A stretch of DNA of 62,879 nucleotides, filler included, from Kipferlia bialata (taxonomy: Eukaryota), in assembly GCA_003568945.1 (NCBI GenBank). It is 6 parts of 6 records of this genome, joined end to end, with 100 filler letters (N's around TTAATTAATTAA, not from the genome) between each part and the next. Parts side by side here need not be neighbours in the genome. Positions count along the whole stretch, not along the records: positions 38,622 to 51,361 come from BDIP01001036.1; 5 more parts are not named here. One strand, 5' to 3'. A program made the position numbers and the translations under genes. Below the pieces are notes generated by a model. The model saw only the letters and a program-made list of their open reading frames with translations, did not search any database and was not told the origin of the DNA. This document shows positions 12,788 to 59,709 of this stretch, one piece after another. The stretch's first letter is position 1. Every line of letters begins with the position of its first letter.

Positions 12788-12887
12788 NNNNNNNNNNNNN
12801 NNNNNNNNNNNNNNNNNNNNNNNNNNNNNNNTTAATTAATTAANNNNNNNNNNNNNNNNNNNNNNNNNNNNNNNNNNNNNNNNNNNN
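12788..12887. other. Artificial contig-joining spacer
   Basis: 44 N + TTAATTAATTAA (stops in all six frames) + 44 N. Confidence 0.97.
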
Positions 12888-25656: not shown

Positions 25657-25756
25657 NNNNNNNNNNNNNNNNNNNNNNNNNNNNNNNNNNNNNNNNNNNN
25701 TTAATTAATTAANNNNNNNNNNNNNNNNNNNNNNNNNNNNNNNNNNNNNNNNNNNN
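25657..25756. other. Artificial contig-joining spacer
   Basis: N44-TTAATTAATTAA-N44. Confidence 0.97.
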
Positions 25757-38521: not shown

Positions 38522-38621
38522 NNNNNNNNNNNNNNNNNNNNNNNNNNNNNNNNNNNNNNNNNNNNTTAATTAATTAANNNNNNNNNNNNNNNNNNNNNNN
38601 NNNNNNNNNNNNNNNNNNNNN
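38522..38621. other. Artificial contig-joining spacer
   Basis: N44-TTAATTAATTAA-N44. Confidence 0.97.
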
Positions 38622-38690
38622 AGCCCGTGCCCGGGGGGGGGGGAGGGGGGGGGGGGGGGGGGATATAGATGGTATATATATGGGGCGTAC

Positions 38691-39699
38691 CGTGAGGGCA
38701 TGCGTAGTGAGCACCCAGGAAGTCACAAGAGAACACGGTCTCGAGGGAGGGGACGTGGGTGAACCTGATGGTAAGGGAGAGAGGAATGATAGGGTGATAG
38801 AGCCGTGTACACATACACATACATTGTGTCCCCCCAGTGGAGCCATGGGGCCAGGTGGAAGTGGAAGTCGGTGCCGTTGACAGACAGCACATCACCCTTC
38901 TTGACCTGGGGTAAGCAGAAGCATACTTATATATAGAATCTACATACATAGAGAGATAGTGCACTCCTTCACTTGGAAGAGAGACAGAGACGTGTGTACC
39001 TGGTGCCTCTTGAATGTGTTGTCGTTGGAGATCTCCTTGAGGAAGTTGATGGCAGCCACTGTGCCGTGGATGGTGGCACCGGTGGCCTGGACAGTGAGGA
39101 TAGATGATACTACATATGTATATAGATGTGTATATATACGTGTATACATACTCATGATTGCGCTATACTCACCAGGGCCAGCTGCACAGCGGTGGAGGAG
39201 TGGTCGGGCTCGGTGTGGTTCAGAATGATGTGGGTGAGCTTCATGCCGGTGCCACCTGACAGTGAGACAGCAGAGACAAAGAGTGACATACTGTATACAC
39301 CCACCCATGACGTCCTCTATCCTGCCCAGGAGCTGGTCTGTGTGCATGGTCTTGCCCTTCACAGTCTCAATCAGCACAGCCTGGGGTGAGGACTATACAC
39401 ATAGAGACAGAGAGACAGAGACAGAGGGAGACACAGTCATGATATGCACACCCACCTCATCCCCGCACTTGACGATGTAGCTGTTGTAGGTGGTGCCAAA
39501 CTCAGTGTACATGACAATGTCAAAGACACGCAGGTTGGGGTCACTGTGGGGTGAGTGGGGGGGGGGGGGTAACAATTGGCGATACTGACAAATTATCAAT
39601 ACCATCACCGTCAGTCCATACACTCCCACCGTACCTAGCTCCGACCCATGACACTCTGTCGGACAGGGCAATGCTCTCGAGGGGTACGCTGTCGGCCAT
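38691..39699 (-). CDS. Flavodiiron protein (A-type flavoprotein, FprA-like O2/NO reductase), metallo-beta-lactamase domain; 3' truncated
   Basis: Spliced: SWVGA..DPNLRVFDIVMYTEFGTTYNSYIV, LIETVK, IILNHTEPDHS (H-x-E-x-D-H), APWLHWGDTMWF, VFSCDFLGAHY. Confidence 0.92.
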
Positions 39700-40058
39700 C
39701 TCTGTTGTATTCTATGGTCCTAAGAAAGATGTTAGAGAGTACTCCCACCCTTAAGCACTCTCACCCTCGGCCACCAATTGTGGCCACGGGATCCAACCAT
39801 TTCGTTGGAGCATTTCAGCCGTTTCAGAAAAGTGAACACTTTGAGCCGGAGAGACAGCATAAGACTGGGGTTATCCACGTCCACTACTATGTGTGTTGGT
39901 GTATGACGAAGGTATTACTAGTGTGGCCTTCTAGTAACCGGTGTCTGCATTGATATAGGTGGACACTGGAAATAGAGACAGTAGCGACAAGTGACGTTTC
40001 AATCATCATGCATGTCAATGTAGATCGGGACGTGAGGCCTTCTCTCTTCGTGTACAGT

Positions 40059-43000
40059 ATGATAACACATGCAGTAGAACCTACAGTGTGGGCATATGCC
40101 GGTATCACAGCGTGAAGAAGTGGTCAGTGGAGTGTGTGTGCCTGTCCTCCATACACCCCTGACCAGTCACAATGTATGCGTCGACATCCATAGTCTCCCC
40201 CATCACGCTCTGTCTGTTTGTACTGGCCACCCTGGTGTCTCTGTGCCTACCCTACAGACATGTGTCCATCCTGTGTGCAGGGTGTCTGTACCTGGACTCC
40301 ACCTTCTGCCTCCTCTCTCTCTCCGTGATAGTGGGTGAGATCCTTGTCAAGGCCGAGCCATCCAGCACGAGAGAGGACCAGTGGAGGGTGGACATGGGGG
40401 CAGACAGGGAGAAGGCAGGGGAGGGGAAGGGGGCAGAGGAGGGGGAGGGGGAGGCGGAGTCTGGGTGCTGTCAGGACTCCGATGCGGCCTGTGTGTCTGA
40501 GTCCTCTGGGTCAGTGGATGAGGGCACTGCAGATGCATGTCCCCCCCCTGCCCCCCCAGAGCGTGTGCCACACACAGACATCACAACACCCCTCAGACAG
40601 GTGGGGGCACTCACTGCTCTTGTATATAGCCTTGCAATACTATCTGAGTATATGTAAAAGTATCACCACCACAACCATATCTCATCTCTACTTGTGCTCT
40701 CCCTCCAACTCCCCCACCTCCCATGTCCAGATGATCATTGGCTGTGTTCAGAGAGCTGTCTCTCTCTCTCTCCCTCCTTTCCTATATTCCCCCCTGTCTC
40801 CGTCTCTATATTTGTATTTGTATCAACGCTATGTTTACACCTCTCAGTTGAGTGTCTCTCCCTCTATTCCCGTATATGGCACATTGTCTCTCGCCCACCC
40901 TCAGGTCCGCTTTGTGCTGATAGGCTCTATCCTCAATGCCCTTGGTGCCATCCTCTATGTATTAGCCCCATCCATCCCAGCTCTCTCCCTGCCCACCCCC
41001 CCACCCCCCCTCTCCCCCATGCTGTGGACTGACGGGTGTGTACCTGAGGCATACCAATGGGTGCCACGCATGGTCAGAGGGGTGTACAGGTGGGGTGGAT
41101 GGGTGGTGGAACGCATCATACACATGGATATACATACATGAGGATGGATACACACCTGACCCCTAGATCCCTCCTCACTCTGGGCACTCTACTGATAGGT
41201 GCTGGGGGTGTACTGACCCATGCCAGGCTGTCAAGGGCAGATTATGAGCAGGGTGCGTTACTAATAGTAGTGAATACTGTCATTCTGTATTTATGTGTAT
41301 GTAGAGCTCTTTTTCTCTTTCCGTTCATAGCATCTCCCCTCACACCAAGTGCAGCTGACCAAGTCTCTACATACTTAGGTGATGTATCTGCTTTTAGTAT
41401 ACATACCTCTCCATGACCCCCAGTGCAGCTGACGAAGTGTGCCATGCAGGCCAGGGGTCTGGACTACCTCATGTGCAGCAGGGTCACATCGAGGTGGGGG
41501 CAGGGGGTATATATTAGTGAGAATGACAATTGAGATATTTTGCCCATTTAGGCCTCACCACCCAGGCCGTGTGCCCATGCCCACTCCTTCATATCGGTCA
41601 TGGGGTCTGTGGCCAGTGGCTACATCCTCTCTCTCTCTCTCTCCCCCTCTGGGCTGGGGGTGCTACCTGACCCTGACCCATACCCACATGTCACAGACAG
41701 TGCAGAGGGTACGGGGTGTATGGGTATAGTCTAGTATACTCTTCGGATCAGACATACCTTGGGGTGAGAACATGTGTAGTACCCACCAATCCACACCGCC
41801 CACCCCCAGTGCTTCCCATGCTCCCCCTCTCCTATGTCGCTGTACTGGCCCCTCTATGGGTGTGTGTGTCACTGGTGTGTGTGGGCATACCAAGTGCAAC
41901 GGACCCAGTCCCAGCAGGTAAGGACATATGTCTATGTACCAGTGTGTAGAAGAATAGCTGCATTTTTGACCAACACCAGTATACACGTACCCAGCTGAAG
42001 ATACCTACATATATACCATACGAGGGTAAATATGTGTATGTGATAATATCACATGATATGTACTCTATTTATCAGTTTATCACCGTCCCTAACCCAGGGT
42101 TCTTTGGACTTGTGTTGGGTCTAGTGGACTATCAGAGGCAGGTACGTTGGTGCATGTGTGAAGGGACCATCCTGGTTTACATTATTATCCTTTCATAGCT
42201 TGGTGCTGGATCTGGTGGAGTATAGGAGACGACTGTCTATGACACCTATACATACACCTCACCCCCAGGTTGAGAGCACCCGTGAGCTGGGAGAGGAAGA
42301 GAGAGAGGAAGCCAGAAGGAAGGGAGAGAGAACCAAGGGAGGGGATGGTGATACTAGCACCAATGCTGCGCCCACCCGGCCCACTCCCATACCCACTGTG
42401 CAGCAGGAGAAGGAGACAGAGGAGCAGGAGGTACAGGGGGTATATCTATGTATATGGTTGAGGTATGAATATGCACATGGTAATCAATTGTCGTGGATAC
42501 ATATGTGTGGATATACATATAAGGGTACAAATCCACCTAACCCCTAGGCCGAGAGGCTGCAGGAGAGACACGATGTTGAACAGCTAGCACACTGGCTACT
42601 GTCACCCAGGCCCATATCCAACAGGAGGTGAGGGTCATGAATACATATATGCCAGTATCTATTATCCTATTTTGTATCCAGTCCCCCCTCACCCCAGGTT
42701 CACCCCCCTCAGGGCCGAGGGCCCAGCCGCAGACACCAGCACACCCTCGGTCACAGGGCAGTTCCCGCTGGCTAGGTGTGGTCAGTCTTCTATACAGTAT
42801 TCACTGCGAGCTGTGTGTCAATGTATCCCTTGTGTGATTGTGCTATAACCATATACCACTTCCAGTGGAAGTCTTCCACTGACCCTGTAGGCCAAGGGTC
42901 ATGTCCATGCTCTGTGCCTATAGCTCAAACAGACCACTCGCAGACAGAAGTACGTATCCACACCACATATTGTTTGGCATGACTACCTTCCTCACACCAT

Positions 43001-46000
43001 ACCCCTATATTATCCCCCACTGTGCCTCACTGCCAGTGCGTGACTCCCTTACTGCTGCCTCCCTGGGGTCACCCACCTCGACCCACCTGAGGTACAACTG
43101 CATTGTTCCTGAGTGTACTTGGATTGATGTGCTGATATGTAGAGTAGCGTGTGAAGTTGTTCTTCTACCTAACACATTCCCACATGTGATGTTGGTGAAT
43201 ACGGCCACCCCATGTAACCCTTGCATACCCCATCTCTCTCTCCATCCCCCCTGACCCCAGGGTTGCTCTTGTGTCCTTAGCACTCTGGGTATACCCCTAC
43301 CTTCCTGCTGTGCTACAGAGAAGGGTGGCAGAGAGGGTCGTGGGGGAGGGGGCCATGCAGAAGGTGAGAGTCTATAGTATATGCTGGATACATAACAATG
43401 ACGTGGAAGTGTGGATACGTGTGTACTCTAGTGCTGTATATGATGTGTATGTTGTACATACCCTACCCCCCCAGGTCCGTCTGTGGATGCGGGACAAGAG
43501 TGCCCTGCCCCAGGTCATGAGGACGGGTGTCACGGCTCCCATCCTGGCAGTCCCCATCACAGGTGGGGGGGGGGGGAGAGTGCATATGTATATGGGTGTG
43601 TATATGTATGGGTGTGATGTGGTTTCCATTCTTAAGTACAATACCTATTAATTGTGGTGGTAGATGTCACTGGATATCGTGTAGTAATCCCACCCCCAGG
43701 CCAGTTCTGCATCCACAACGGGGTGGGTCCCCTCATGCTGTGCCTCAGGTGGGGACTCACTGTTCATGTACTAGAATGCTTCTGTGGATATTGTCAGAAC
43801 ACAGTGGTTACTACATAAATCTGCATATATGTATGTATATATATTTAGCAGAGACCATTGTATACTCACACCCAGAGAGATCCTGGAGATTGACTGTCTC
43901 AAGGCCCATCACGACGCAGCCAGACTGGTATGTGAAGATAGTTTACTATTCTCGTAATACCAATGGTCCTACTGGCCCTGTTCCACCTTGTCATGGGACA
44001 TGTATGGTTCAGGTCTATCCACTTTGTCATGCATTACCTATATATATAAATTGGTATTAGGCACTACAACTCTTCACATATACCCCAATATCCCACCCCC
44101 AGGCCATGTTCCATCTGGTGTCAGGGCAGATACTAGCCAACAAGAGACAGACCTCATTCCCAGTGTACCCCAGGGACATAGGAGACTCGCAGGTGGGGCG
44201 CAGTATCGTGTAGAGTTCCAGCACTGAGTAGTCTACTGAGTGACTAACCCTTCAGTGGATCCCCCTCTCTGTCACGGCCAAGAGTGGCGAGCAGTACACC
44301 CCCTCCAAGCAGCTGATAGAGGACTGGAGCCACAGAGTGCCCCCCCCTCCCAGGGTGTTCCCAGTCTGGCCTCCCCTAGGTAGGGCGTCGGTGGCTGTGT
44401 ATCTGGTCTATATCGTTTCACACCTTGCTTAATACCCAGGTACCCCCCCTTGCTCCGTTCTGGCCAGAGCGTTCCAGACCATCTTTGTGCAGGTATCAAA
44501 TACACGAGCAATTGCTGCCTATATACTGATATCGTTCATATGTGTTGTCTTACCTTTATATTGTATTTCTGCCTCACCTGTCAGATTCTGCCCGATGGAG
44601 ATGGCCCTAGCTATGAGTACACAACGGCACAGTGGTTCAGACTGAGGTACGGGGTGGGGGTATACACGGTCAAACCAGGAGGATGTAGCTACCTTCTCTG
44701 CTTCTGACCCCAGGGGCCAGGAGGTTGACCCAGAGGGTGGGTGGGACAAGTGGGTGGGGACACTACTGCCAGACAGTAGGTGGGGGTGTATGTGTGTATA
44801 TATATGAATATGTGTATATAACATACTGGAACTACTGCCTGAGAGTAGGTGGGGGGTTGGAGTGTGTGGTGTAATTTGCCATATGAATGCAGACATGTAT
44901 CTCACAATCCTGTGTGGGATACTTCCATATACCTATCTGCAGGTTCTTGATAACCCCCCCACCCCCAGGCACCATCTGTTCGTGACCTCCCTGGCCCTTA
45001 TGCGACAGGACCCCAGACTAGTGAAAGGGGTGGTGTCGGAGAGTGCGGTGCTCGAGATGAGCCACAGGTATAGCATCTTCAGTATGGGTGACAGTTCATC
45101 TGTTATATTCAGTTCCACTGAGCTGTTATCTCATTTCTGAATTGTTCATGAAGTACTAGTCTCTCACCCTCTAGCGGTGGCCATGTGATCCCTGTTGGCT
45201 ACACCTGGTGGGTGGAGCAGAGGTACCCGTCAGGCAGGGCCAAGATAGTCAGGGGGTGCGAGACATTCTACAAGACACAGAAGCTGGCTAGGTGCGACAG
45301 ATACGAGGAGTAAACATCCGTAATACCATATATGTCAGACGTCCCTTCTTATGTCAGTGTTTGCATGAGAGGGGGCAGAGTACATGTGGTTATTTATATG
45401 AAATGTCCTACCTACCTCTTCCTACCTTCCCCTCTCACCTCAGGCTGATGAGGAGAGAGAGAAGGGTGCAGCGGAAGGGCAGGGAGGCCAAGCAGGGTAA
45501 GGGGGTAGACGTTGAATATTGGATTGAAGTGTCTTCAGATGCATCGCGTAAGTATGAGTATCATACCCCACCCCACCCCTCTGACCCAGTTGCTACCGAC
45601 TCCTCGGATGTCAGGGATGCCCATGGCAGGAAGGGGGTGCTGGAGTCCCTGACCGATGGCAGTGACGGGTCATCCCTCTCCCTGGGTCACTCCTCCTTTG
45701 ACCACTCCCTGTCCTTCTCATTCGACTCATTGATACAGAAGCCAGGTACGGGCAAGAGTGGCAATATACCTTCTCTCTTTGTGATATATATATCCATGGT
45801 GTGTGTTCCAGCAGTCTCTCACCCCAGGCCTCCAGGGTGTGTCCCTTAGGGAGATAGTGAGAGCACAGGGAAAGGACAAGGTATCAACCAGTTGTATATG
45901 TGTAATGTAGTAGATACTCCTAACCCCTAGGAGAAGGGTCGCAAGGGAACACCTGCTAGGGAGAGACAAGGGAAGAAGGCAGAAGATGAGGGGGAGGAGG

Positions 46001-49000
46001 AGGGAGAGAGAGAAAGGAGCAGGTTGGAGGGGGACGAGGACTCCAGCCTAGCCGATGACATACTGCTTAGGACAGAGAGGGAGAGAGAGAGAGGTGGCAT
46101 GAGTGCAGATAGGGATGGCACAGGTGTGACACCAGAGCCAGGGTTCTCAAGAGGGAGAGAGAGGGAGAGGGAGAGAGAGAGGACGGGTGTGCCTGGGTCG
46201 AGTGGGAGGTCCAGGGGGAGGAGTGTGAGGAGGAGCAGAGACAGTCAGGGGGATGCATACACCAGTGGCAGAAAGGCAAGGAGAGACAGCCAGACGGGGA
46301 GCTTCAGCAGGTGGGTGTCACTATGCTTACATATATGTATATTTCAATGCATAAATGACTCATGTTCTTCATATACATACAGTATCCATATGACTCCTCA
46401 CCCAGTGGCTCCACTAGACGGTCCACCAAGGATGAGTCGGTGGACCCCTTCTTCTCACTGGGGTATCTGCAGAGCATATGTGCCAGTCTGCCAGGTAGGG
46501 TGGCACAGTAGCGTACATGTGTCTACAGTGTATCCAAGTAGTGGTGTACCAGAAGCATTCGCATTTACTCCTATGGCTGGTTACCCTTGACCTTCCATAC
46601 ATATTACCTCCCCCACCCACCCCAGAGTGTCTGAGGCCCAGTCTGGCCAACAGACCCCGGCAGGTACGGGGGGATATGTGTGGGCATACAGACGTATAAG
46701 AACTGACTGACGTGATACTTCTCGATATTCTCACTCACCCCCTGACCCCAGATCTCCCTCCCCCACCAGCTGTTCAGACCATGCATACAGAGGGTGGGGT
46801 CAGGCAGACTCAAGGAGAGGTGGGGAAAACATGTGTGTCCTACATATATATATATAGGGATATATAGGCAGGCTCCAGGAGAGGTATACAATATAGACAT
46901 ATATGTAGATTCTAAATTTCACCGCATACGGAAAGTGGACAAGTCGAAGTAGAACACACGTATCTGTATCCAACCATCTTGAGAGATTGACTGCCTACCG
47001 TCCCACACCCAGCATCTTCCGGTACCAGGAGGCCCTTGCCTGCCCTGTGAAGAAGGAGGCCATACACAGGGCATCACGGCTGCTGGACTACAACTGTCAG
47101 GTGGGGTGACGCGGCATGTGTGTGTATGAAATATATATCATGGGAGGCAACATATCTCCATCCTCACCCCTCAGGAGCTGAACCGCGTCACTGACCACTG
47201 TGGCCTAGAGATCCTGAGTGCATATCTGTTTAACAGCACAGGGATAGACTCGACGGGTGGGTGGGCATGGGTTGTTCAACATTCCTGTTCATCGCTGTAC
47301 AAGATAGAATATGCTTCAGTACAAGTATACACATATATACATGTATATACGACTCCTATTACGACCCCTCACCCAGGTGTCTCCCTGGCCTCCTTTCTGT
47401 CCTTTGTGTTGACCATATCAGAGAGATACAGACACGACGTCCCATACGCAGGTGGGGTCATATGCATGGAGTGGTATAGTCTGAGTCATGTGTCTATGTG
47501 TGTACACTTACCACAGGGTCTCTGAATGCTCTGGACACTCTGCAGGTCACGCACCTCCTGTCACACTCTATCAGGTATGCTGTATATGTGTCGAGTGTAT
47601 AATGCAATGCATGATATCATAACCCCCACCCCCAGGTCATCCCCCATGGGCACCACGTACTTCCCAGCAGACTGTCTGCTGTTTGCATTCATGGGGGCAG
47701 TCAGGTGGGTGGGAGTGGGTCATGGAATTGATCAATAACTGTCAGGCTATTTGAACATATGCCAGTTATAGGTTATACACCTTACGTATTCGTAATTACG
47801 CTTCCATTCATTGTATTTCTGGCCCTGACCCCCCCAGCTACACGATTGAGGCTGGGGTGGCATGTCACACAGCAGCAGACGGGAGGGTGCACGCCGCTGG
47901 TATGTCAGTGTATTTGATGCGTCTATATTTCTGTCCGTCTCACCCCTAGGCAGTCTCCACAAGCAACAGTCCAGAAGTGCCCACTCCGCAGGTGGGGGTT
48001 TCTATATCCCCACATATGTATCATTTGCTAGTGCCCCTACCCACCCCCAGCTATGTGACTCATATGTATGTATAATTAATCATGTGTATGTAGAGTACTC
48101 AACCCCAGCCCTGTGTCTGATGGTTGCCAAGCAGACCAACATCCTCAGAGAGCTGCCAGTGGGGTCGTGTGATGTGATACGCTCACTCATATGCGCCACT
48201 TCACCCGATGACGTAGGTACAGTCACTGTATTGCAGTACTATATATATATATATATTGCCATCACTGCCTTCCCCTCCAGGCAAACTGATCCTCGAGTTG
48301 GAGGCCTATGCTGTGTGGCTGGAACAGATGACACAGGAGGAGAGGGAGAGCCTGTTCTCAATGTCGAGGCCAAAGGTATGTCTTTAGGCAGTACCGTATA
48401 CATCTACCTACACTACAGATATCTCACCCCCAGGTTGAGGAGGACCTCCCCGCCCTGATCTCTGTGCCCACCACCCCCCTTGCCACACTGCAGTCCCTGA
48501 TACTGAGGGCTGTATTGGTGGTGGCCAGTCTGTCATTCTGCGGCAGGAAGAGTGTGTACCAGGTAGGTATTTACAGGCTCTGCATCACAGTGTGTCAGTA
48601 GTGTGGCTTGGATTCGTGTACCTACTCTCAAACTTTAATCCCACCCCCAGGACCGGTCTGAGAGATGGAAGGCAGCCCAGACACTGGAGATGAAGGTCGA
48701 CAAGGCAACCTTCGGGTTCAGCAGAAACTGGGAGGGTGTGTGGTGCAAGTGGATGTATAGAGTTCTACCAGTCACTATATCAGCACCACACGTGTCAAGT
48801 ACTTGTCTGGCATACATCCCCCCCCTGACCCCCAGGCACTGAGGATGCCATGGTGTGTGCCCTCAGAGAGACGTGCTTCTATCCTCTGGTGTGCAGGTAG
48901 GGATAGAGTGGGCATGTGTATCTGGAACTCGATGCACAGTGATATACACAAGTATAGTTACTATACTGCCTCTGACCCAGGGTGCACTCCATCTCTGTGC

Positions 49001-49068
49001 TCATGGGCATCCCCTTCTTCACAGCCATGCTAGAGCAGCTCAGGGACAACGCAGCAAGCATTAAGTGA
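40059..49068 (+). CDS. Large multi-exon protein: N-terminal transmembrane segments and a C-terminal degenerate class I cyclic-nucleotide phosphodiesterase domain
   Basis: Hydrophobic exons (ITLCLFVLATLVSLCL, FVLIGSILNALGAILYVLA, LLTLGTLLIGAGGVL). PDE-like C-terminus LDYNCQELNRVTDHCGL..FLSFVLTISERYRHDVPY..NILREL..RSLICATSP..MLEQLRDN; stop at 49066-49068. Continuity of the whole span is inferred. Confidence 0.65.
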
Positions 49069-49571
49069 GGGGTGATTAATGTAAGAGGGGTAGTAGACTT
49101 CTGGTGGTTGACGGTCATCATAAAGACAGTTGTTATGGAAGAGATTCAATATCAGGTGATTACATGTGCGATATCTTGCCACACTTGCGGATGTTATATG
49201 TCACACAATGTAGGTGGATAGCCAGTGGCTCAATGGATTGGGTATAAAGTGTCAGAGGAATGTGAGTCTGTACTGGACTGAGGTCCATCATACATCATGT
49301 ACCGTCCAGGACCGGGTGTACAGCTTTGGCCTCAGAAGCCAATTGTTTCAGCTGGTTGAAGTTTTATGCCATTCCTTGCATTAGCCCGCTGTAATCGCTG
49401 GGCCTACCACAATGGATGGCTGCATATATCAATGTCCATGTGCTATAAGGCAGGAAGGCATGGTGTGACATTTATCATTCGTGAATGCGTCCAAAATCCC
49501 AAATCAGATGAAATGATTCTAGTCCAATGACCCGTTTTGATATCAGACACTGAGGCTCTCACCTCTCTCTT

Positions 49572-50314
49572 AGGCTGCCTACTTGGAGAGAGAGAGCGAG
49601 ACAGATGAACTATGCAATCAGTGGGGGAGGTATGGGCGTGTTCTAGCTTATATTGGCACCGTGCTCTGATTTGAATCTGCAAATATCAGTGTGATTGTAT
49701 TGGTTGTATGCATGTGTATATTTGTATGTGTATGTACCCCTGCCCCCAGGCATCCGCAGTGCCACCTTCAGCCTGGGTGTCATGAATGCTGCGATGGAGG
49801 TGGAGCAGATACTCGCCAGGGGGCACAGCAGAGATGCCTCCACAGACAGAGACACAGTGGCCAGGTCCAGGGTGTCCTCTGGGGGTGCCTCACCTGCCGA
49901 GGGCTCTGCCACTGTGTCCATGCCAGCACCCCTGGCAGACATAGCAGTGGCCCCGGTGCCTGTAGTCACGCAGGAGAGGGAGCGGAGGGAGGGAGGGGCC
50001 GCAGGGGAGGGGTGTGTGGCTGGGGTGAGCAGCGATGCTCTCTTCGAGGCTGCCTCCCCCTATGCTGACCCTGATGCCTCAGAGGAGATGTCCCAGCTCA
50101 TGTCACCCAGCGTGGACACCGACTTCTCGGACCTCCCCGAGGAGGTGGAGGCAGCCACGAGGTAGGGGCATGTGTCATGGGTCGGTCAGACCGATATCGG
50201 TGTGTGTGAGTACGTGTATATATATGCACCCCTGCGCCAGTTTGTGCAGTGCATTGTATCTAATAGTGCTCTTCACGTTGTGGTGTGCCCATATCCCTCT
50301 TTATACAGCATCTA

Positions 50315-50356
<42 letters not shown>

Positions 50357-51277
50357 TTCCCCGTTACCTGTCCACACATTGACATATGACTCCCTGTCTC
50401 ACTCCAGCTGACATTGACGACTACTCTTTGTTTGCCACGGGAGACGATGCCGGTAATGTCCAGTTCTGGTGAGTGCTGGATTACGTATAATGATGTTCAC
50501 TTATTGACAGTGTCAGTGCTTTGTGTATGGTATATAGTATAGAGCTCCTCTGCTTCTGACCTCAAGGGAGCTTGGTGCCGACCAGATGCTGAAGAAGGTG
50601 GGCGGGGACAGGCTGGGTGTGGGTGTGAGGGACATGCAGTTCACAGAGGAGAACCACCTGGTGGTGCTGAGGGAGACAGGTACGCTATACTAAGCAGTAT
50701 ACTCATCTATATTGCAGCATCTAGCTTGATTCTCTGACTCACCCCAGGTGCCTATGTGCGTGCCTTCATGGGAGACCCTGAGACGCCAGTGCCTTGTGAG
50801 GAGAGGGTCAAGAGGGTGGCTGGATGGTGAGTGGAAGATATATATATGCTTCTGTGGATACACACATCATATGGGAACTTGTCTCTTCCGTCTGTAACAT
50901 GTCTCTTATTCACACATATTCTAACCACCAGTGCCGAGGAGCCCCTTCTGTACCCAGATGCCCCCCTCATCTGTCTGTGCCCCACCAGTGGACAGGTACT
51001 ACATATAACATCATCAACCATATGTGCACATTGACACACTATTCATTTTGAGTGTGTGCATATCCTCTCTCACTCTAGGTCATCATGGCCGGTACCACCA
51101 AGGGCAGTCTGGTCGAGTGCATGCCCCAGGAGGTATGAGTGAGTCGATATATGTATATCCAATATATAAACATGTTGGATTCTCTTCACTCCTCACCCAG
51201 CCCGGTAATATTGCAGTGGAGCCTGTGCTCAACGGGTACACCATGGGTACAAGTGGAGGGCTCAAGCTGCACGAGGG
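49572..51277 (+). CDS. WD40-repeat-like protein, 3' truncated; start uncertain
   Basis: Exons LFATGDDAGNVQFW|ELGADQMLKK..VRDMQFTEENHLVVL and VIMAGTTKGSL. Confidence 0.6.
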
Positions 51278-51361
51278 TGAGTAGAGACACTGTCTCTGCA
51301 TATGTGTAGCACTCCGCCCCCCCCCCCCCCCCCCCCCCTCCCCCCCCCCCCCCCCCCCCCC

Positions 51362-51461
51362 NNNNNNNNNNNNNNNNNNNNNNNNNNNNNNNNNNNNNNN
51401 NNNNNTTAATTAATTAANNNNNNNNNNNNNNNNNNNNNNNNNNNNNNNNNNNNNNNNNNNN
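51362..51461. other. Artificial contig-joining spacer
   Basis: N44-TTAATTAATTAA-N44. Confidence 0.97.
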
Positions 51462-51525: not shown

Positions 51526-54500
51526 GTCTCCCATCTGCGCCAACAGCTAGAGGACACCGCCCCTCTGACCCATACTGAGGTTGGACACTCTGACTCAGAC
51601 TCCGGCATCCCTGGCCTAGGTGCCGGGTCAGCCTTTGCCCAGGATAGGATAGACAGTCTGATGGGGGAGATAGCCCATGTGTCTGAGAGACTGCGGCAGG
51701 CAGAGGCTGAGAGGGACACTGCCACCCTACAACTGCACCAGATGGAGTCGAGACACACCATGGAGGGCGTGGATACACAGGGGGGTAGGGGGGGAATGTC
51801 CGAGACCATCGAGATAGAGAGAGAGAGGGAGCTCGAGCAGCTCAGAACTGACCTGAGCGCCTGTGAGAGGGAGAGAGAGTCTCTGAGACGCACCCTAGAG
51901 GCTGAGAGGGAGACCTGGGACAGGTTGGGTCGGGACAGAGAGAGAGAGAGGGCTGACCTCGAGGCCAGGGTGCAGGGTGTGACTGTGGAAAGAGACTCAG
52001 CCCTGGCCCAGACCCTCATACTGCAGACGCAGCTCAATGCACAGCTGAGTGCATCTAATGTAACCCGCCAAGATGGAGAGGAGGCAGGAGAGGTTGCACA
52101 TGAGGCCACAGCCGAGGCTCATCCAGTGGGTGAGGTTGGGCCTACCCAATCCCACAGGCAAGTGGAGGAAGACCCAGAGCTCACCTCCATATCTCAGACA
52201 CTGGCTGCGGTGAGGGCAGAGAGAGAGAGACTGGCCGAGGAGAGGGAGAGGGGAGGCCCCTCCCTATCTGAGGGACCAACCATACCTACGGATGCGGCCC
52301 TATCCTCAGAGACAGGCCCTGTCCCTGTGTCTGTGTCATTGTGTCTGGAGGAGTGCAGAGAGAGACTGGTGCAGGCCGAGACACAGCGGGACAGGGCCCT
52401 AGCCCTGTACCAGGAGGCCCAGACCCAGCTAGCCTCTGCCCCCCCTGCCCCTTCTGCCAGTGTGTTTGAGACACAGGCTAGGCTGGAGGGTGCCAGAGTG
52501 GCAGCAGTGGAGAGGAGGGAGAGAGAGAGGGAGGAGGAGGTGGCAAGGCTGAGGGAGGATCTGGAGCAGAGGTCAAGGGAGCTGGCCGACACAAGAGACG
52601 CCCTAATAGCCTGTAGGAATAGGGTGAGAGGTACACCCAGTGATGCCCTGGGTATGGGTATGGATGCTGACAGTGAGTCAGAGCATGAACAGGGCTCAGC
52701 CGAGGGCATGTCTACCCCTCGCACTGCTATTGAGTCTTCCCTGAGTCGCAAGGGAGTGTCTACCCTCATTGACACAGTCAAGAGAGGCATAGAGACGGGA
52801 CTCACAAAGGACGGTGAGGGAGAGGGGGATGAGGAGGAGGACCCCCACACCATGAGAGAGTCCGCTCTCTCTGCTCTCCACTCCCTCAGGCACCTGGTTG
52901 ACAGACTGGCTGCTGTGCATGCAGGGGCTGTCCAAGAGACCAGGGTAGCACAGGAGAAGGCAGCCTCTCTGACTGGGAGACTGACTGCCAGTGAGAGGGA
53001 GAGTGCGCTAACCCAGACCGCCAATGACACCCTGAGGAGAGAGAGAGACAGGGCGAGTGCCGCGAGGGATACCCTGTCTGCTGAGGTGGCAGTGTTACAG
53101 GACAGACTGGCTGTGATGGAGGGGGAGAGTGCTGCCAGACCTGGTCTGCTCAGAGACATCCAGGCCTCAGTCACCCACTCACTGAGACAGGCGTCAGATG
53201 CAGCAGAGGCATACCTTAGCAGTGTCAGACCGGCCATGCTCATGAAGGGAGAGGGAGACAGAGATGGTAGTGCCAACAACCATGACACGTCTGGTGGTGA
53301 TGCCTCCCTAGTGGCCAGACTGCTAGACAGGGACAGACGGATACATGGTCTGACCTGGGAGGCAGAGTGTCTCAGGGTGAGGGTCGGGGTGGAGCAGACC
53401 CAGGCCCTGTCCCTGGCTGCGTCTCTGGTGGAGTGGGTGGGCAGTGCAGTATCCAGTGCCAGGGGCCAGGCCAGGCTGTTACACACCATGGAGGCTGGGA
53501 CACAGCACCGCATCTCCCTCCAGACAGACATAGTCCGGTCACTAAGGGAGAGGGTGAGGGAGGCCGAGATCGAGGCTGACGATGCCCAGTCTAGGTGCTG
53601 CACCCTTCTGGGGCAGATGGCTGCAGCCAGACAGAGACACCAGGACAGGCTGAGGGCAGAGAGAGAGACCTCCACCCGCATGCAGGCCACTCTGGTCCAG
53701 GCCTCCCACTGTCTGGCAAGGGGTGGTGCGGCAGGGGAGGTATACGAGCAGGTGCGGCAGTACCTGACGTCTCCGTCCCAGGTGCCACCACCCGAGGGCC
53801 TGGGCCTCTCCCTCCCCACCCCCCTCTCCCTGTCTACGGATGCCAGGGACAGTGTCAGGGCCAGGCTAGCGGGGGCAGCAGCACACAGCCAGGCCCTGCT
53901 ATGCCGCAACACAGCCCTAGTTGAGGTACTAGGGGATGTTCTGGGGACACAGGCTGCGGCGGCACCAGCTGCACATACTAGTGCCCCTGAGTGTGTGGAG
54001 GCAGAGTCTGCAGTGTCTGTGGAGGATGTGACCAAGGCCCTCAGTGCTGCCAGGAGGGGGGAGAAGGAGGCCAGAGCAAGGGCCAGACAGGCAGAGAAGA
54101 GAGTGCGGAGGCTGACGGCTGAGGTTGAGGCTGGGGACAGGGACAGGGGTCTAGTGAGAGAGGAGTGGGTCAGAGCAGTTGGTCAGGTGGGTAGGATGAG
54201 TGTTATATGACTTTAGTGTATACCAATTAACGTGTCTAACCCCCCCCCCCCCCTCTGACCCCAGACCGTGGAGAGTGTGCTAGGCAAGGTGCGGCACATG
54301 ACCCATGCCCAGACACAGGTGCAGAGGATGCTGGAGGGGGCCACGGCCTCAGTCAGGGCAGGGCAGGGGGCAGACTCGGTCACTGACGTGTCCACTGCAC
54401 CCAGCCTGACTGCTATTAGTGACCCCCTCTCCCATATCAATGGTACCCAGCCCATGCACCCTGTCCCTGTCTCTGTAGCTGCCGAGGTGTCTGCAGCCAA

Positions 54501-56382
54501 GGAGGCGGAGGTCCAGGCACGTGCTGCCCTGGCCTTCGAGCAGGAGAGGAGCAGTGCTTTGGCAAAGCTGGCCAGGGCGTACAGAGAGAGGGTGCGGGAG
54601 GGAGAGAGAGAGAGAGAGGCCATCCTGGCTGAGATGCCGGAGGGGGTGGAGGGTGGCACCCAGACCGTCCAGCCTCTGAGTGTGTCCAGAGGAGTGGACC
54701 CTGTTCTCTCCCCCCCTCCCCTCTACACTGCGACCACCCAGACCGAGGACTGGCTGGCAGAGGGTGACACCTGGGAGGCTGGGGTGCAGACGGCACTCAG
54801 CAGCTTTGTGTGTGGGACAAGTGTTGGGTGTGCTACTGAGACTGACTCAGAGGCAGAGGCAGAAGGGCAGGATGACGAGTATGCGTTCTCTGAGTCCACC
54901 CAGACATGCCCCGTTGAGCTGTCCATCTCATGGACCCAGACCACCCCTCCCCCGGACATGCTCCCCTATGCGGTGCAGACAGATGCCTCGATGCACTGTA
55001 GAGTGGCAGAGACACAGACACAGGGGGTGGAGAGAGAGAGCAGGGGGGTGCAGGGGAGTGGGCCAGAGGGGACGGTACAGCAGACCCAGACGGATACCCC
55101 TAATGCCTTCAACGCCCAGGTCCAGACGGAGCTGACAGCTGACCTCATTAGGGAGATTAGGGAGGAGCTAGCTGCCTGTAGGGAGGGTCTGCTGGATGAT
55201 AGTGTACAGCTAGTGGAACATGCGTCTCTGACAGGGAAGGTGTGCTACCTAGAGGCCACCCTGCAGACCACGAGACAGGAGCTGGAGGCCAGGGAGGTCG
55301 AGTGCTCCCACTGTACAGTGAGGCTGAAGGAGGCACAGGACGAGGTATCTAGACTGGAGCAGGCCCTAGCATTAGAGGAGGGGAGGTGTGGGCAGGAGAG
55401 AGAGAGGTCGGACAAGGCAGAGACCTCGCTGCAGAGGCTGAAGGATAGGCGTGGAAGGGCGGAGACCAAGAGGGACGCGGAACTGACTAAGGCACAGAGA
55501 CAGTTGGAGAGAGAGAGAGAGAGGGTGTCCCAGGCCCACAGAGACCTTGATACCCTGAGGGCACAGCTAGAGACTGCCGGTGCGGCACTGAAGGCAGAGA
55601 GGAAGGTGTCGGCTGGGCGCAACAGTGACCTCAGGAGCAGCAGACAGGCTGCAAAGCTGAAGACAGAGAGACTGACAGCGGAGGTGGCTGCAGCGACACA
55701 GAGAGCGGAGACAGCCGAGCAGAGGCTAAAGGAAGGGAAGGACGTGCTGAGGCGCAAGCAGAACGCACTGCAGGTGGGTTAATGTGCATATTTTGGTATC
55801 ACTCTGTACTTGTCTATATTGAGTGGTTACGACTTCTGCTGCTTGTTGACAGTGTACATTGTTATATATCCATTCTCCATCTATTGTGTCTCACCCCAGG
55901 CGAGGGGCATCGAGATAGAGGCGCTGAAGGAGAGGGAGAAGGAGCTTGAGCACTCTCTCTCTGTGTCCCAGGCTCGTGCTGAGGCTAGGGTACAGGCTCT
56001 ACCAGATATGACCATAGGCACCCACCCAGCTTCCTCTGCCGCTGCCTCTACCACCACTGTGCAGCACAGGCCTGGTGTGCCCTCCATCAGGTGGCACCCC
56101 AGGGTGGCTGGGCCCCCATACCCCTTGGCCCCCACCAACGTCAATGACATATCCCGCACCCCAGCACCGGAGTCTGAACCCCCCTCCCCCACCCCCCGGC
56201 AGAGGGCGAGGTGGGAGAGAGGCCCAGAGGCAGAGACAGAGGCAGAGGCAGAGGCTGTGCCCCATGGTGACGTGTACATTCAGGATGGATACTCTGGCCT
56301 CAACCTGTCCGACCAGGACTTGGAGTCCTTGCAGGGTCTGAACCTCACAGCTGAGGACCTGTCTGCCCTACTGCCTAGCTAA
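51526..56382 (+). CDS. Very large coiled-coil protein (5' truncated) with a TQT/VQT motif array; exons ~51526-54186, 54265-55773, 55900-56382
   Basis: 849-, 504- and 190-aa ORFs joined by short GT-AG introns; heptad-rich sequence. Confidence 0.8.
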
Positions 56383-59609: not shown

Positions 59610-59709
59610 NNNNNNNNNNNNNNNNNNNNNNNNNNNNNNNNNNNNNNNNNNNNTTAATTAATTAANNNNNNNNNNNNNNNNNNNNNNNNNNNNNNNNNNN
59701 NNNNNNNNN
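59610..59709. other. Artificial contig-joining spacer
   Basis: N44-TTAATTAATTAA-N44. Confidence 0.97.

What the first reader, a model, noticed from the sequence alone, without database searches (positions are those of the whole stretch)
47013..49068. Catalytically dead class I phosphodiesterase domain on a multi-TM protein
Seen after splicing, against the established class I PDE motif order: PYHNxxHAxD reads PYAGSLNALD; AAxHDxxHPG reads GAVSYTIEAG; ATD reads ATS; ADLS reads ASLS. The scaffold is kept (LDYNCQELN, FLSFVLTISERY, NILREL, YPL, MLEQLRDN). The catalytic His and the His/His/Asp/Asp metal ligands are all replaced, yet the frame is open over about 11 exons. Inference: a maintained pseudo-PDE acting as a scaffold or sensor. 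TM segments plus a C-terminal PDE domain recall the Giardia PDE layout.
Basis: partly seen in the sequence, partly recalled or inferred. Interest (0 to 1): 0.7.

Follow-up and report, generated by a model that had tools for sequence, protein, structure and literature searches.

The report
Dead phosphodiesterase family in free-living flagellate
A spliced gene of the free-living flagellate Kipferlia encodes a likely membrane protein ending in a predicted cAMP-phosphodiesterase fold that lacks all eight metal-site residues; it is one of at least nine related degenerate genes in this species, likely kept as protein-docking modules rather than enzymes.

Summary
Confirmed and extended. Window 40172-49068 (+) is a 43-exon gene encoding Kipferlia bialata KIPB_004723, 1426 aa. 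An RNA-like run shows 15 of 15 modelled 3' junctions, including the one that gives S-Y-T instead of H-D; contig lengths tie the TM exons to the PDE exons. Pfam misses the domain, but a profile of Kipferlia paralogues alone hits PDE7A at E=1e-10, and a template-free model (pLDDT 77) matches class I PDE catalytic domains end to end (Z 27.9). It keeps 0 of 8 metal-pocket residues and has no Gln on the helix that carries the invariant Gln, so catalysis is very unlikely and nucleotide sensing disfavoured. New: 12 of 13 library hits are Kipferlia proteins; at least nine 23-54% identical paralogues keep fold positions while their catalytic positions vary freely. A PAS-like domain at residues 676-810 is a lead only (atlas yes; HMM, HHalign, fold inconclusive). 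Best reading: a membrane-anchored pseudo-PDE acting as a docking/regulatory module. Function and partner untested; orthology to Giardia PDE untested.

The parts
40172..49068 (+). Whole gene, 43 exons / 42 GT-AG introns, CDS 4281 nt, 1426 aa (P0001 = KIPB_004723)
   Evidence: RNA-like contigs cover 40134-40410, 40469-46145 (spliced length 2582 = model) and exon 27 to 49068
40190..42132 (+). Predicted transmembrane segments, residues 7-25, 41-59, 146-164, 313-331 (KD 1.86-2.4) and weaker 203-221, 264-282, 332-350, with two long hydrophilic loops
   Evidence: Kyte-Doolittle scan; UniRef calls it 'Transmembrane protein'; no dedicated TM predictor was available
43262..43318 (+). Further candidate TM segment, residues 501-519 (KD 1.59)
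43544..44480 (+). Family-specific conserved region (helical pair, then Pro-rich W-P-P motif), residues about 558-682, shared with P0003, P0004, P0006; fold unknown
   Evidence: BLASTP E 2e-15 to 4e-6 within the session's set, alignment
44460..45471 (+). Possible PAS-like domain, residues about 676-810 (lead only)
   Evidence: ESM Atlas rows with PAS families 0.91-0.92; shared with P0003 and P0014 (0 of 2000 shuffles each) and weakly P0004 (38 of 2000); HMM, HHalign and fold tests gave no match
45472..46663 (+). Low-complexity Arg/Glu/Ser/Gly-rich linker, residues 811-1057, likely disordered
   Evidence: sequence; coordinates
47013..49068 (+). Class I PDE-fold domain without catalytic residues, residues 1080-1426, 13 exons
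47442..47536 (+). Degenerate YHN..H motif: catalytic His -> Ala1161, metal His -> Asn1165
47839..47856 (+). Degenerate HD..H motif: Tyr1205, Thr1206, Ala1209; acidic residue of the structural salt bridge kept (Glu1208)
47976..47987 (+). Degenerate ENHH motif: Ser1234, Ser1237; structural His1236 kept
48304..48493 (+). Family-specific insertion between the ATD and ADLS motifs (68 residues apart vs 40 in PDE7A) with near-invariant W1287, R1304, E1308, P1312, Q1326
48527..48538 (+). Metal Asp -> Ser1338; purine-contact Asn position -> Phe1341
   Evidence: register bridged through P0012
48836..48896 (+). Helix that carries the invariant Gln and clamp Phe in PDEs; no Gln here (Pro-anchored positions Val1384, Leu1387)
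   Evidence: spacing Gln369/Phe372 from PMC12839185, distance to the Pro recalled and seen in P0012

Best explanation
This is a spliced, intact gene for a likely membrane-anchored protein whose C-terminal domain is predicted to keep the class I phosphodiesterase fold but has lost all eight metal-pocket residues, so it is predicted not to hydrolyse cAMP and likely works as a protein-docking (scaffold or regulatory) module. Shown: gene, splicing, residue losses, a family of at least nine degenerate paralogues. Predicted: fold, TM anchor. Inferred: an ancestral TM-linker-PDE gene of the Giardia type duplicated in the Kipferlia line; the copies lost the metal site and then the purine pocket, kept the helical core, and gained a conserved insertion between helices 12 and 13 that would supply a new surface. 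The domain would bind a partner at a membrane (most simply an active PDE or another cAMP-pathway protein, which it would place or damp as a prozyme-like or dominant-negative partner), possibly under control of the upstream PAS-like domain. No partner is identified.
For: Splicing and integrity: (15 of 15 joints; GC3 0.72 vs intron GC 0.45). PDE homology without using any PDE in the query: E 9.7e-11; PDEase_I 0.90; pLDDT 77, pTM 0.81 from 11 Kipferlia rows; 38 rows shown, all PDEs, TM 0.54-0.63 by query length; Z 27.9, rmsd 3.9, 292 aligned. Loss of catalysis: 0 of 8 residues listed for GlPDE in PMC5617230. Selection on fold, not pocket: mean pairwise identity 0.19 at those 8 columns vs 0.33 over 327 columns, while A1166, H1174, G1210, H1236, T1269 are invariant in the rows that cover them; the H-loop salt-bridge pair described in PMC5617230 is kept (E1208/H1236). 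Pocket positions differ between paralogues, which argues against a shared ligand or new chemistry there. Family.
Against: No activity, binding, localisation or partner data. Pfam PF00233 does not match this protein at E<=10. Only 2 of 5 AF2 models exceed pLDDT 75 and the H-loop (model 153-171) is under 50; rmsd to PDEs is about 4 A. The insertion is only slightly more conserved than average (0.375 vs 0.332). Most paralogue models are fragments with internal gaps and were not checked against RNA, so some may be mis-predicted or decayed. RNA evidence is one sample, probably the one the annotation rests on, and contigs hide minor isoforms. No active Kipferlia PDE was retrieved, so the proposed partner is not even shown to exist. 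No relative outside Kipferlia apart from one ordinary PDE fragment.
Confidence: 0.55

Rival explanations
1. The dead domain is a passenger: it is kept folded only for stability, or is slowly decaying after gene duplications, and whatever the protein does lies in the TM and PAS-like parts.
For: Paralogues are 23-54% identical with no invariant column over all 11 rows; many models are fragmentary; in Trichomonas expanded cyclase and PDE families shed pseudogenes (PMC2914791 abstract and table passage: 46% and 18%).
Against: Full-length open domain over 13 exons at high divergence, strong GC3 bias, invariant surface-type residues (W1287, R1304, P1312, Q1326), all nine overlapping paralogues keep the domain.
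Confidence: 0.2
2. The domain binds cAMP/cGMP or AMP without cleaving it and acts as a sensor or buffer, like degenerate bacterial EAL/HD-GYP receptors (recalled).
For: The pocket-forming helices are all present in the model; Tyr1160 of the YHN motif is kept; the related P0012 keeps a Gln-x-x-Phe motif and the Asn.
Against: In P0001 no Gln occurs in residues 1370-1406 whatever the register; Asn position is Phe; the metal site that holds the phosphate is gone; these positions vary between paralogues. Roles of Gln369, Asn321, Phe372 from PMC12839185.
Confidence: 0.12
3. The family has built a new metal or catalytic site from other conserved residues (His1174, His1178, Arg1181, His1228, His1236) and acts on another substrate.
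For: These residues are kept in 5-6 of 5-6 rows that cover them.
Confidence: 0.1
4. It is an active PDE and the losses come from wrong splicing or assembly error.
For: L-H-D is readable at 47838 in another frame; an H-D dipeptide occurs at 1156.
Against: RNA-like contig fixes all 15 joints with no differing letters listed; DNA run shows no differences; 0 of 31 alternative joints give H-D; the losses are spread over five exons and recur in paralogues.
Confidence: 0.03

Closest known systems
Giardia lamblia GlPDE (GL50803_14058) and Spironucleus SsPDE (PMC5617230; methods and results parts plus passages read)
   Same: Fornicate protein of like size (1371 vs 1426 aa): 8-9 predicted TM helices with two long loops in the N-terminal 573 aa (here up to 8 candidates in 519 aa), about 420-560 aa of unassigned middle, C-terminal class I PDE domain.
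   Different: GlPDE keeps all eight metal-pocket residues and hydrolyses cAMP, is single-copy, and has lost the H-loop salt bridge; P0001 keeps 0 of 8, keeps the salt-bridge pair and has many paralogues. Sequence orthology was not tested: GlPDE was not returned.
Human PDE4/PDE7/PDE8 catalytic domains (PF00233)
   Same: Whole-domain fold match (Z 27-28, about 300 residues); near-ungapped register through the YHN, HD and ENHH motifs.
   Different: 11-17% identity; catalytic His, all metal ligands, invariant Gln replaced; about 28-residue insertion between ATD and ADLS motifs; shorter loop before the Gln helix.
Toxoplasma TgPDE4 (PMC7720076, passages read)
   Same: Membrane-associated class I PDE said to show 'many substitutions' among the 16 signature residues: a partial precedent for a degenerate PDE on a multi-TM protein.
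   Different: Single gene with an ion-transport-like domain, still detected as PDEase_I; which residues are lost is in a supplementary figure I could not see; no function shown.
Pseudoenzyme regulators: trypanosome prozymes (bioRxiv 10.1101/776112, search listing only), bacterial pseudo-phosphodiesterases (PMC13700151, listing only; degenerate EAL/HD-GYP recalled)
   Same: Dead paralogue of a signalling or metabolic enzyme retained for non-catalytic use.
   Different: Other folds; their partners or ligands are shown experimentally, here none is.

Membership tests
Class I cyclic nucleotide phosphodiesterase (PDEase_I, PF00233) | Pfam PF00233 above the gathering cut-off | tested here: not met
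   0 families at E<=10 for P0001 whole and for the domain alone; paralogues P0002 (28.8 bits) and P0012 (59.3) pass the 24.8 cut-off
Class I cyclic nucleotide phosphodiesterase (PDEase_I, PF00233) | Detectable sequence homology to solved class I PDE domains | tested here: met
   phmmer E 0.008, first 42 rows all PDEs; Kipferlia-only profile E 9.7e-11 over the first about 200 of 342 profile positions
Class I cyclic nucleotide phosphodiesterase (PDEase_I, PF00233) | All-helical three-subdomain catalytic fold | tested here: met
   Predicted model only:
Class I cyclic nucleotide phosphodiesterase (PDEase_I, PF00233) | Eight conserved metal-pocket residues (H,H,H,D,H,E,H,D; list from PMC5617230) and the PS00126 signature at the HD site | tested here: not met
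   A1161, N1165, Y1205, T1206, A1209, S1234, S1237, S1338: 0 of 8
Class I cyclic nucleotide phosphodiesterase (PDEase_I, PF00233) | Invariant purine-scanning Gln with Phe three residues on | tested here: not met
   No Gln in residues 1370-1406, which span the modelled loop and helix H322-349; exact register there rests on the conserved Pro and is inferred
Class I cyclic nucleotide phosphodiesterase (PDEase_I, PF00233) | Hydrolyses cAMP and/or cGMP | not testable with these tools
   needs an assay
GlPDE-type fornicate transmembrane PDE | N-terminal bundle of 8-9 TM helices, unassigned middle, C-terminal PDE domain, about 1400 aa | tested here: met
   Layout only: 4 strong and 4 weaker hydrophobic segments in 1-519; one transcript inferred from abutting contigs
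GlPDE-type fornicate transmembrane PDE | Sequence or tree evidence of orthology to GlPDE/SsPDE | not tested
   No Giardia or Spironucleus sequence was retrieved
PAS domain (clan of PF00989/PF08447/PF13426), residues 676-810 | PAS sequence profile or PAS fold | tested here: inconclusive
   For: atlas (9 of 10 best family rows in one clan, feature counts 120-137, under the 170 typical of true members); strand-strand-helix...three strands-helix order. Against: no Pfam hit, own 24-sequence PAS HMM no hit, HHalign score below shuffle mean, model pLDDT 34, Foldseek no hit at E<=0.001
Pseudoenzyme (expressed, folded, catalytically dead homologue) | Intact expressed gene, homologous fold, catalytic residues lost | tested here: met
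   (transcript and prediction level; protein not detected)
Pseudoenzyme (expressed, folded, catalytically dead homologue) | Inactivity measured and a non-catalytic role shown | not testable with these tools
   needs bench work

The most novel reading that the evidence does not exclude
Kipferlia has evolved a family of ten or more receptor-like proteins (TM bundle, PAS-like sensor, dead class I PDE) in which the phosphodiesterase fold has been turned wholesale from an enzyme into a signal-output docking domain, with P0012 (3 of 8 metal residues, purine Gln/Phe kept) as an intermediate stage: a pseudokinase-style expansion for class I PDEs, which my literature searches did not find described.
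Probability: 0.25. Interest if true: 0.8.

Novelty: new variant of a known kind. Interest (0 to 1): 0.58.

Why it matters
Class I PDE metal ligands are treated as invariant, and my searches found no described family of class I pseudo-PDEs (closest is a remark on TgPDE4). An expanded, transcribed family that Pfam mostly misses (3 of 13 proteins match PF00233, one of them not Kipferlia) shows that such proteins can hide as 'hypothetical', gives a graded series from 3 of 8 to 0 of 8 residues for studying how a PDE becomes a non-catalytic module, and suggests that free-living fornicates have a larger cAMP-related signalling layer than Giardia's single PDE. It also points to a possible sensory domain in the unassigned middle of fornicate TM-PDEs.

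Tried and rejected
No whole genome is held, so paralogue loci, their introns and an active Kipferlia PDE could not be examined. Word-index searches found only P0001 itself or nothing (crowded by long candidates; weak evidence). No relative in metagenome contigs for P0001 (0 of 109 pattern matches). Bacterial PF00233 search to get a full active reference failed (7 weak partial matches in 401 genomes). Idea that residues 570-610 are a UCR2/PDE8-type dimer hairpin: not supported against a fungal-like PDE locus L001 (probability 0.3%) nor between P0001 and P0012 (1485 of 2000 shuffles). PAS tests by HMM, HHalign, PDB profile and Foldseek were negative or uninformative; the model behind one search has pLDDT 34, so that search says nothing. 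The H-D at 1156 starts a stretch that by eye fits PS00126 at all but one position; rejected as chance, since it aligns to the loop before the YHN motif and is not kept in paralogues. L-H-D-stop at 47838 rejected. The wide structural library and the complex predictor were not available, so no homodimer model exists; this is no evidence either way. The tree of 10 Kipferlia rows (fragments P0007, P0010, P0011 and the outside fragment P0013 left out) has no outgroup and is not used for direction. Earlier scan notes: nothing found.

Full report
1. What is there. The region is intron-rich eukaryotic DNA. One exon (48434-48562) retrieved a single protein, P0001, 1426 aa, named by its source as Kipferlia bialata KIPB_004723. 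It maps to window 40172-49068 (+) as 43 exons and 42 GT-AG introns, and the joined CDS translates to P0001 exactly. The finding's interval holds the last 13 exons. The gene lies on one contig between N spacers (38622-51361).

2. Splicing. Two public runs hold the stretch, both from one sample. Run X2 is only guessed to be RNA, but its contigs skip GT..AG introns and leave intronic bins at zero depth. One 1395-nt contig gives 15 joints from 46494 to 48981; 15 of 15 equal the model and the spliced length agrees (1240 = 1240). The joint 47704->47838 yields Ser-Tyr-Thr, not His-Asp. Of 31 alternative donor/acceptor pairs for that intron that keep the frame open, 0 give H-D. A 2622-nt contig covers 40469-46145; only six of its pieces were listed, but its span equals the model's spliced length (2582 = 2582). 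The two contigs meet inside exon 27 at a GA repeat, and the loose end of the 3' contig reads the end of that exon, so TM and PDE exons very likely lie on one transcript, though no single record spans both. Limits: one sample, probably the one behind the annotation; contigs drop minor isoforms.

3. Is it a class I PDE domain? Pfam gives 0 families for the whole protein and for the domain. Against PDB the single sequence gives PDE4B at E 0.008, with PDEs in the first 42 of 52 rows; the atlas gives PDEase_I at 0.90 with 162-169 shared features, borderline by its own scale. A search of 1.84 billion representatives with residues 1058-1426 gave 13 hits at E<=0.001: 12 of 13 are Kipferlia proteins, one is a metagenome fragment of an ordinary PDE. 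A profile of 11 Kipferlia rows, without P0012 and the outside fragment, hits PDE7A at E 9.7e-11 and all 60 rows shown are class I PDEs; the match covers only the part up to the ATD motif. AlphaFold2 on the same 11 rows, no templates, gave pLDDT 77, pTM 0.81 (other models 76, 58, 54, 52). Foldseek's 38 rows shown are all PDE catalytic domains and VIA-align gives Z 27.9, rmsd 3.9 A, 292 residues, spanning the domain end to end (a second look at Foldseek's list, not a search).

4. Is it dead? PMC5617230 lists eight strictly conserved metal-pocket residues. By the HMMER register and the bridge through P0012 for the last Asp they are A1161, N1165, Y1205, T1206, A1209, S1234, S1237, S1338: 0 of 8. 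[quoted passage not shown] PDE4 binds adenine through Gln369, Asn321 and Phe372 (PMC12839185); here the Asn position is Phe1341 and there is no Gln in 1370-1406, so the purine pocket is lost in any register (the exact Val1384/Leu1387 assignment is inferred from the conserved Pro; MAFFT did not itself put P0012's Gln on that column). Between the ATS and ASLS motifs lie 68 residues against 40 in PDE7A (counted).

5. A family. Nine Kipferlia models overlap around residues 1245-1290 at 23-54% identity (P0001-P0006, P0008, P0009, P0014), so at least nine genes; P0012 is a tenth, less degenerate relative; P0007, P0010 and a second locus for P0002 look like recent duplicates, P0011 covers another part. 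Canonical residues kept, of those covered: P0001 0/8, P0014 0/8, P0002 2/8, P0012 3/8, P0003 1/5, P0005 0/5, P0011 0/5, P0008 2/4, P0004, P0006, P0009 0/1, P0010 none covered. Mean pairwise identity is 0.19 at the eight columns, 0.33 over 327 columns, 0.375 in the insertion; five of seven PDE-wide structural columns checked are invariant, the salt-bridge acid column (0.10) and the Pro (0.48) are not. Most models are fragments with internal gaps; I could not check them against DNA or RNA. No close relative was found outside Kipferlia, which is limited by sensitivity and sampling.

6. Rest of the protein. Hydropathy gives four strong and four weaker segments in residues 1-519, with two long loops; peaks up to 1.8 also occur in the soluble domain, so only four are firm. 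Residues 558-682 are shared with P0003, P0004, P0006 and 676-810 with P0003 and P0014 (0 of 2000 shuffles each). The latter looked PAS-like to me by eye, and the atlas independently lists PAS families at 0.91-0.92 behind unnamed clusters, but a PAS HMM, HHalign, a PDB profile search and a fold search gave nothing and the model was unusable (pLDDT 34). It stays a lead. The layout matches GlPDE (1371 aa, 8-9 TM helices in 1-573, catalytic domain 997-1371), but orthology is untested.

7. How it likely works. Shown: intact spliced gene, loss of catalytic and purine-binding residues, repeated in a family. Predicted: PDE fold, membrane anchor. Inferred: because pocket positions drift while core and some surface positions stay fixed, selection acts on the fold and an outer surface, which fits a docking or regulatory role (0.55) better than a passenger domain (0.2), nucleotide sensing (0.12), a new active site (0.1) or a splicing error (0.03). 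The partner is unknown; an active PDE or PKA-pathway protein is the simplest guess and no complex could be modelled.

8. What is known. Searches: 'pseudophosphodiesterase' 0 papers; Kipferlia plus phosphodiesterase 0; some searches listed 20, 20, 15, 15 of 50, 52, 47, 56 papers, none by title or abstract start on a class I pseudo-PDE family. PMC7720076 notes 'many substitutions' in TgPDE4 (its supplementary figure not seen, and it may bear on novelty); PMC8809380 allows that some TgPDEs may be inactive. The library lacks most subscription papers. Seen: PMC5617230 two parts of the text plus passages; PMC7720076, PMC10865986, PMC8809380, PMC5874029, PMC12839185 passages; PMC2914791 abstract and passages; PMC13700151 and 10.1101/776112 listing only. 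Degenerate bacterial EAL/HD-GYP receptors and helix numbering are recalled.

9. Verdict. Real, correctly read by the first stage, and larger than reported: a lineage-specific family of class I pseudo-phosphodiesterases. Not a member of the active PDE family (defining residues tested, not met); a new variant of a known kind. Interest 0.58, held down by one species and no functional data.

Noticed in passing
window 12788-12887, 25657-25756, 38522-38621, 51362-51461, 59610-59709: 100-base N spacers with a TTAATTAATTAA core: the window is a string of joined contigs, so genes across them are not true neighbours. The gene's contig is about 12,740 bp, as for P0001's record.
   Followed up: yes
window about 38700-39700, minus strand: Head-to-head neighbour about 470 bp upstream: intron-rich gene with an H-x-E-x-D-H motif; one exon hits a solved flavoprotein (1vme, E 0.0011), probably a flavodiiron (oxygen-scavenging) protein. 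Adjacency to a possible PAS sensor may be chance.
   Followed up: partly
P0012 (KIPB_002431), not in the window: A second type of degenerate PDE: 3 of 8 metal residues, catalytic His lost, but Asn and a Gln-x-x-Phe motif of the purine pocket kept; the better candidate for a nucleotide-binding pseudo-PDE.
   Followed up: partly
P0002, P0007/P0014, P0005/P0010: One protein listed for two loci and two pairs at 88-89% identity: the family is still duplicating, or these are alleles.
   Followed up: no
window 49600-51340 and 51527-56380, plus strand: Downstream exons of another gene, cut by a spacer, and a long low-complexity coiled-coil-like ORF with very long exons; not identified.
   Followed up: no
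L001:900-3419: Metagenome contig with an intron-containing, apparently active class I PDE preceded by several hydrophobic segments (fungal-like by eye), showing that TM-PDE layouts are not peculiar to fornicates.
   Followed up: partly
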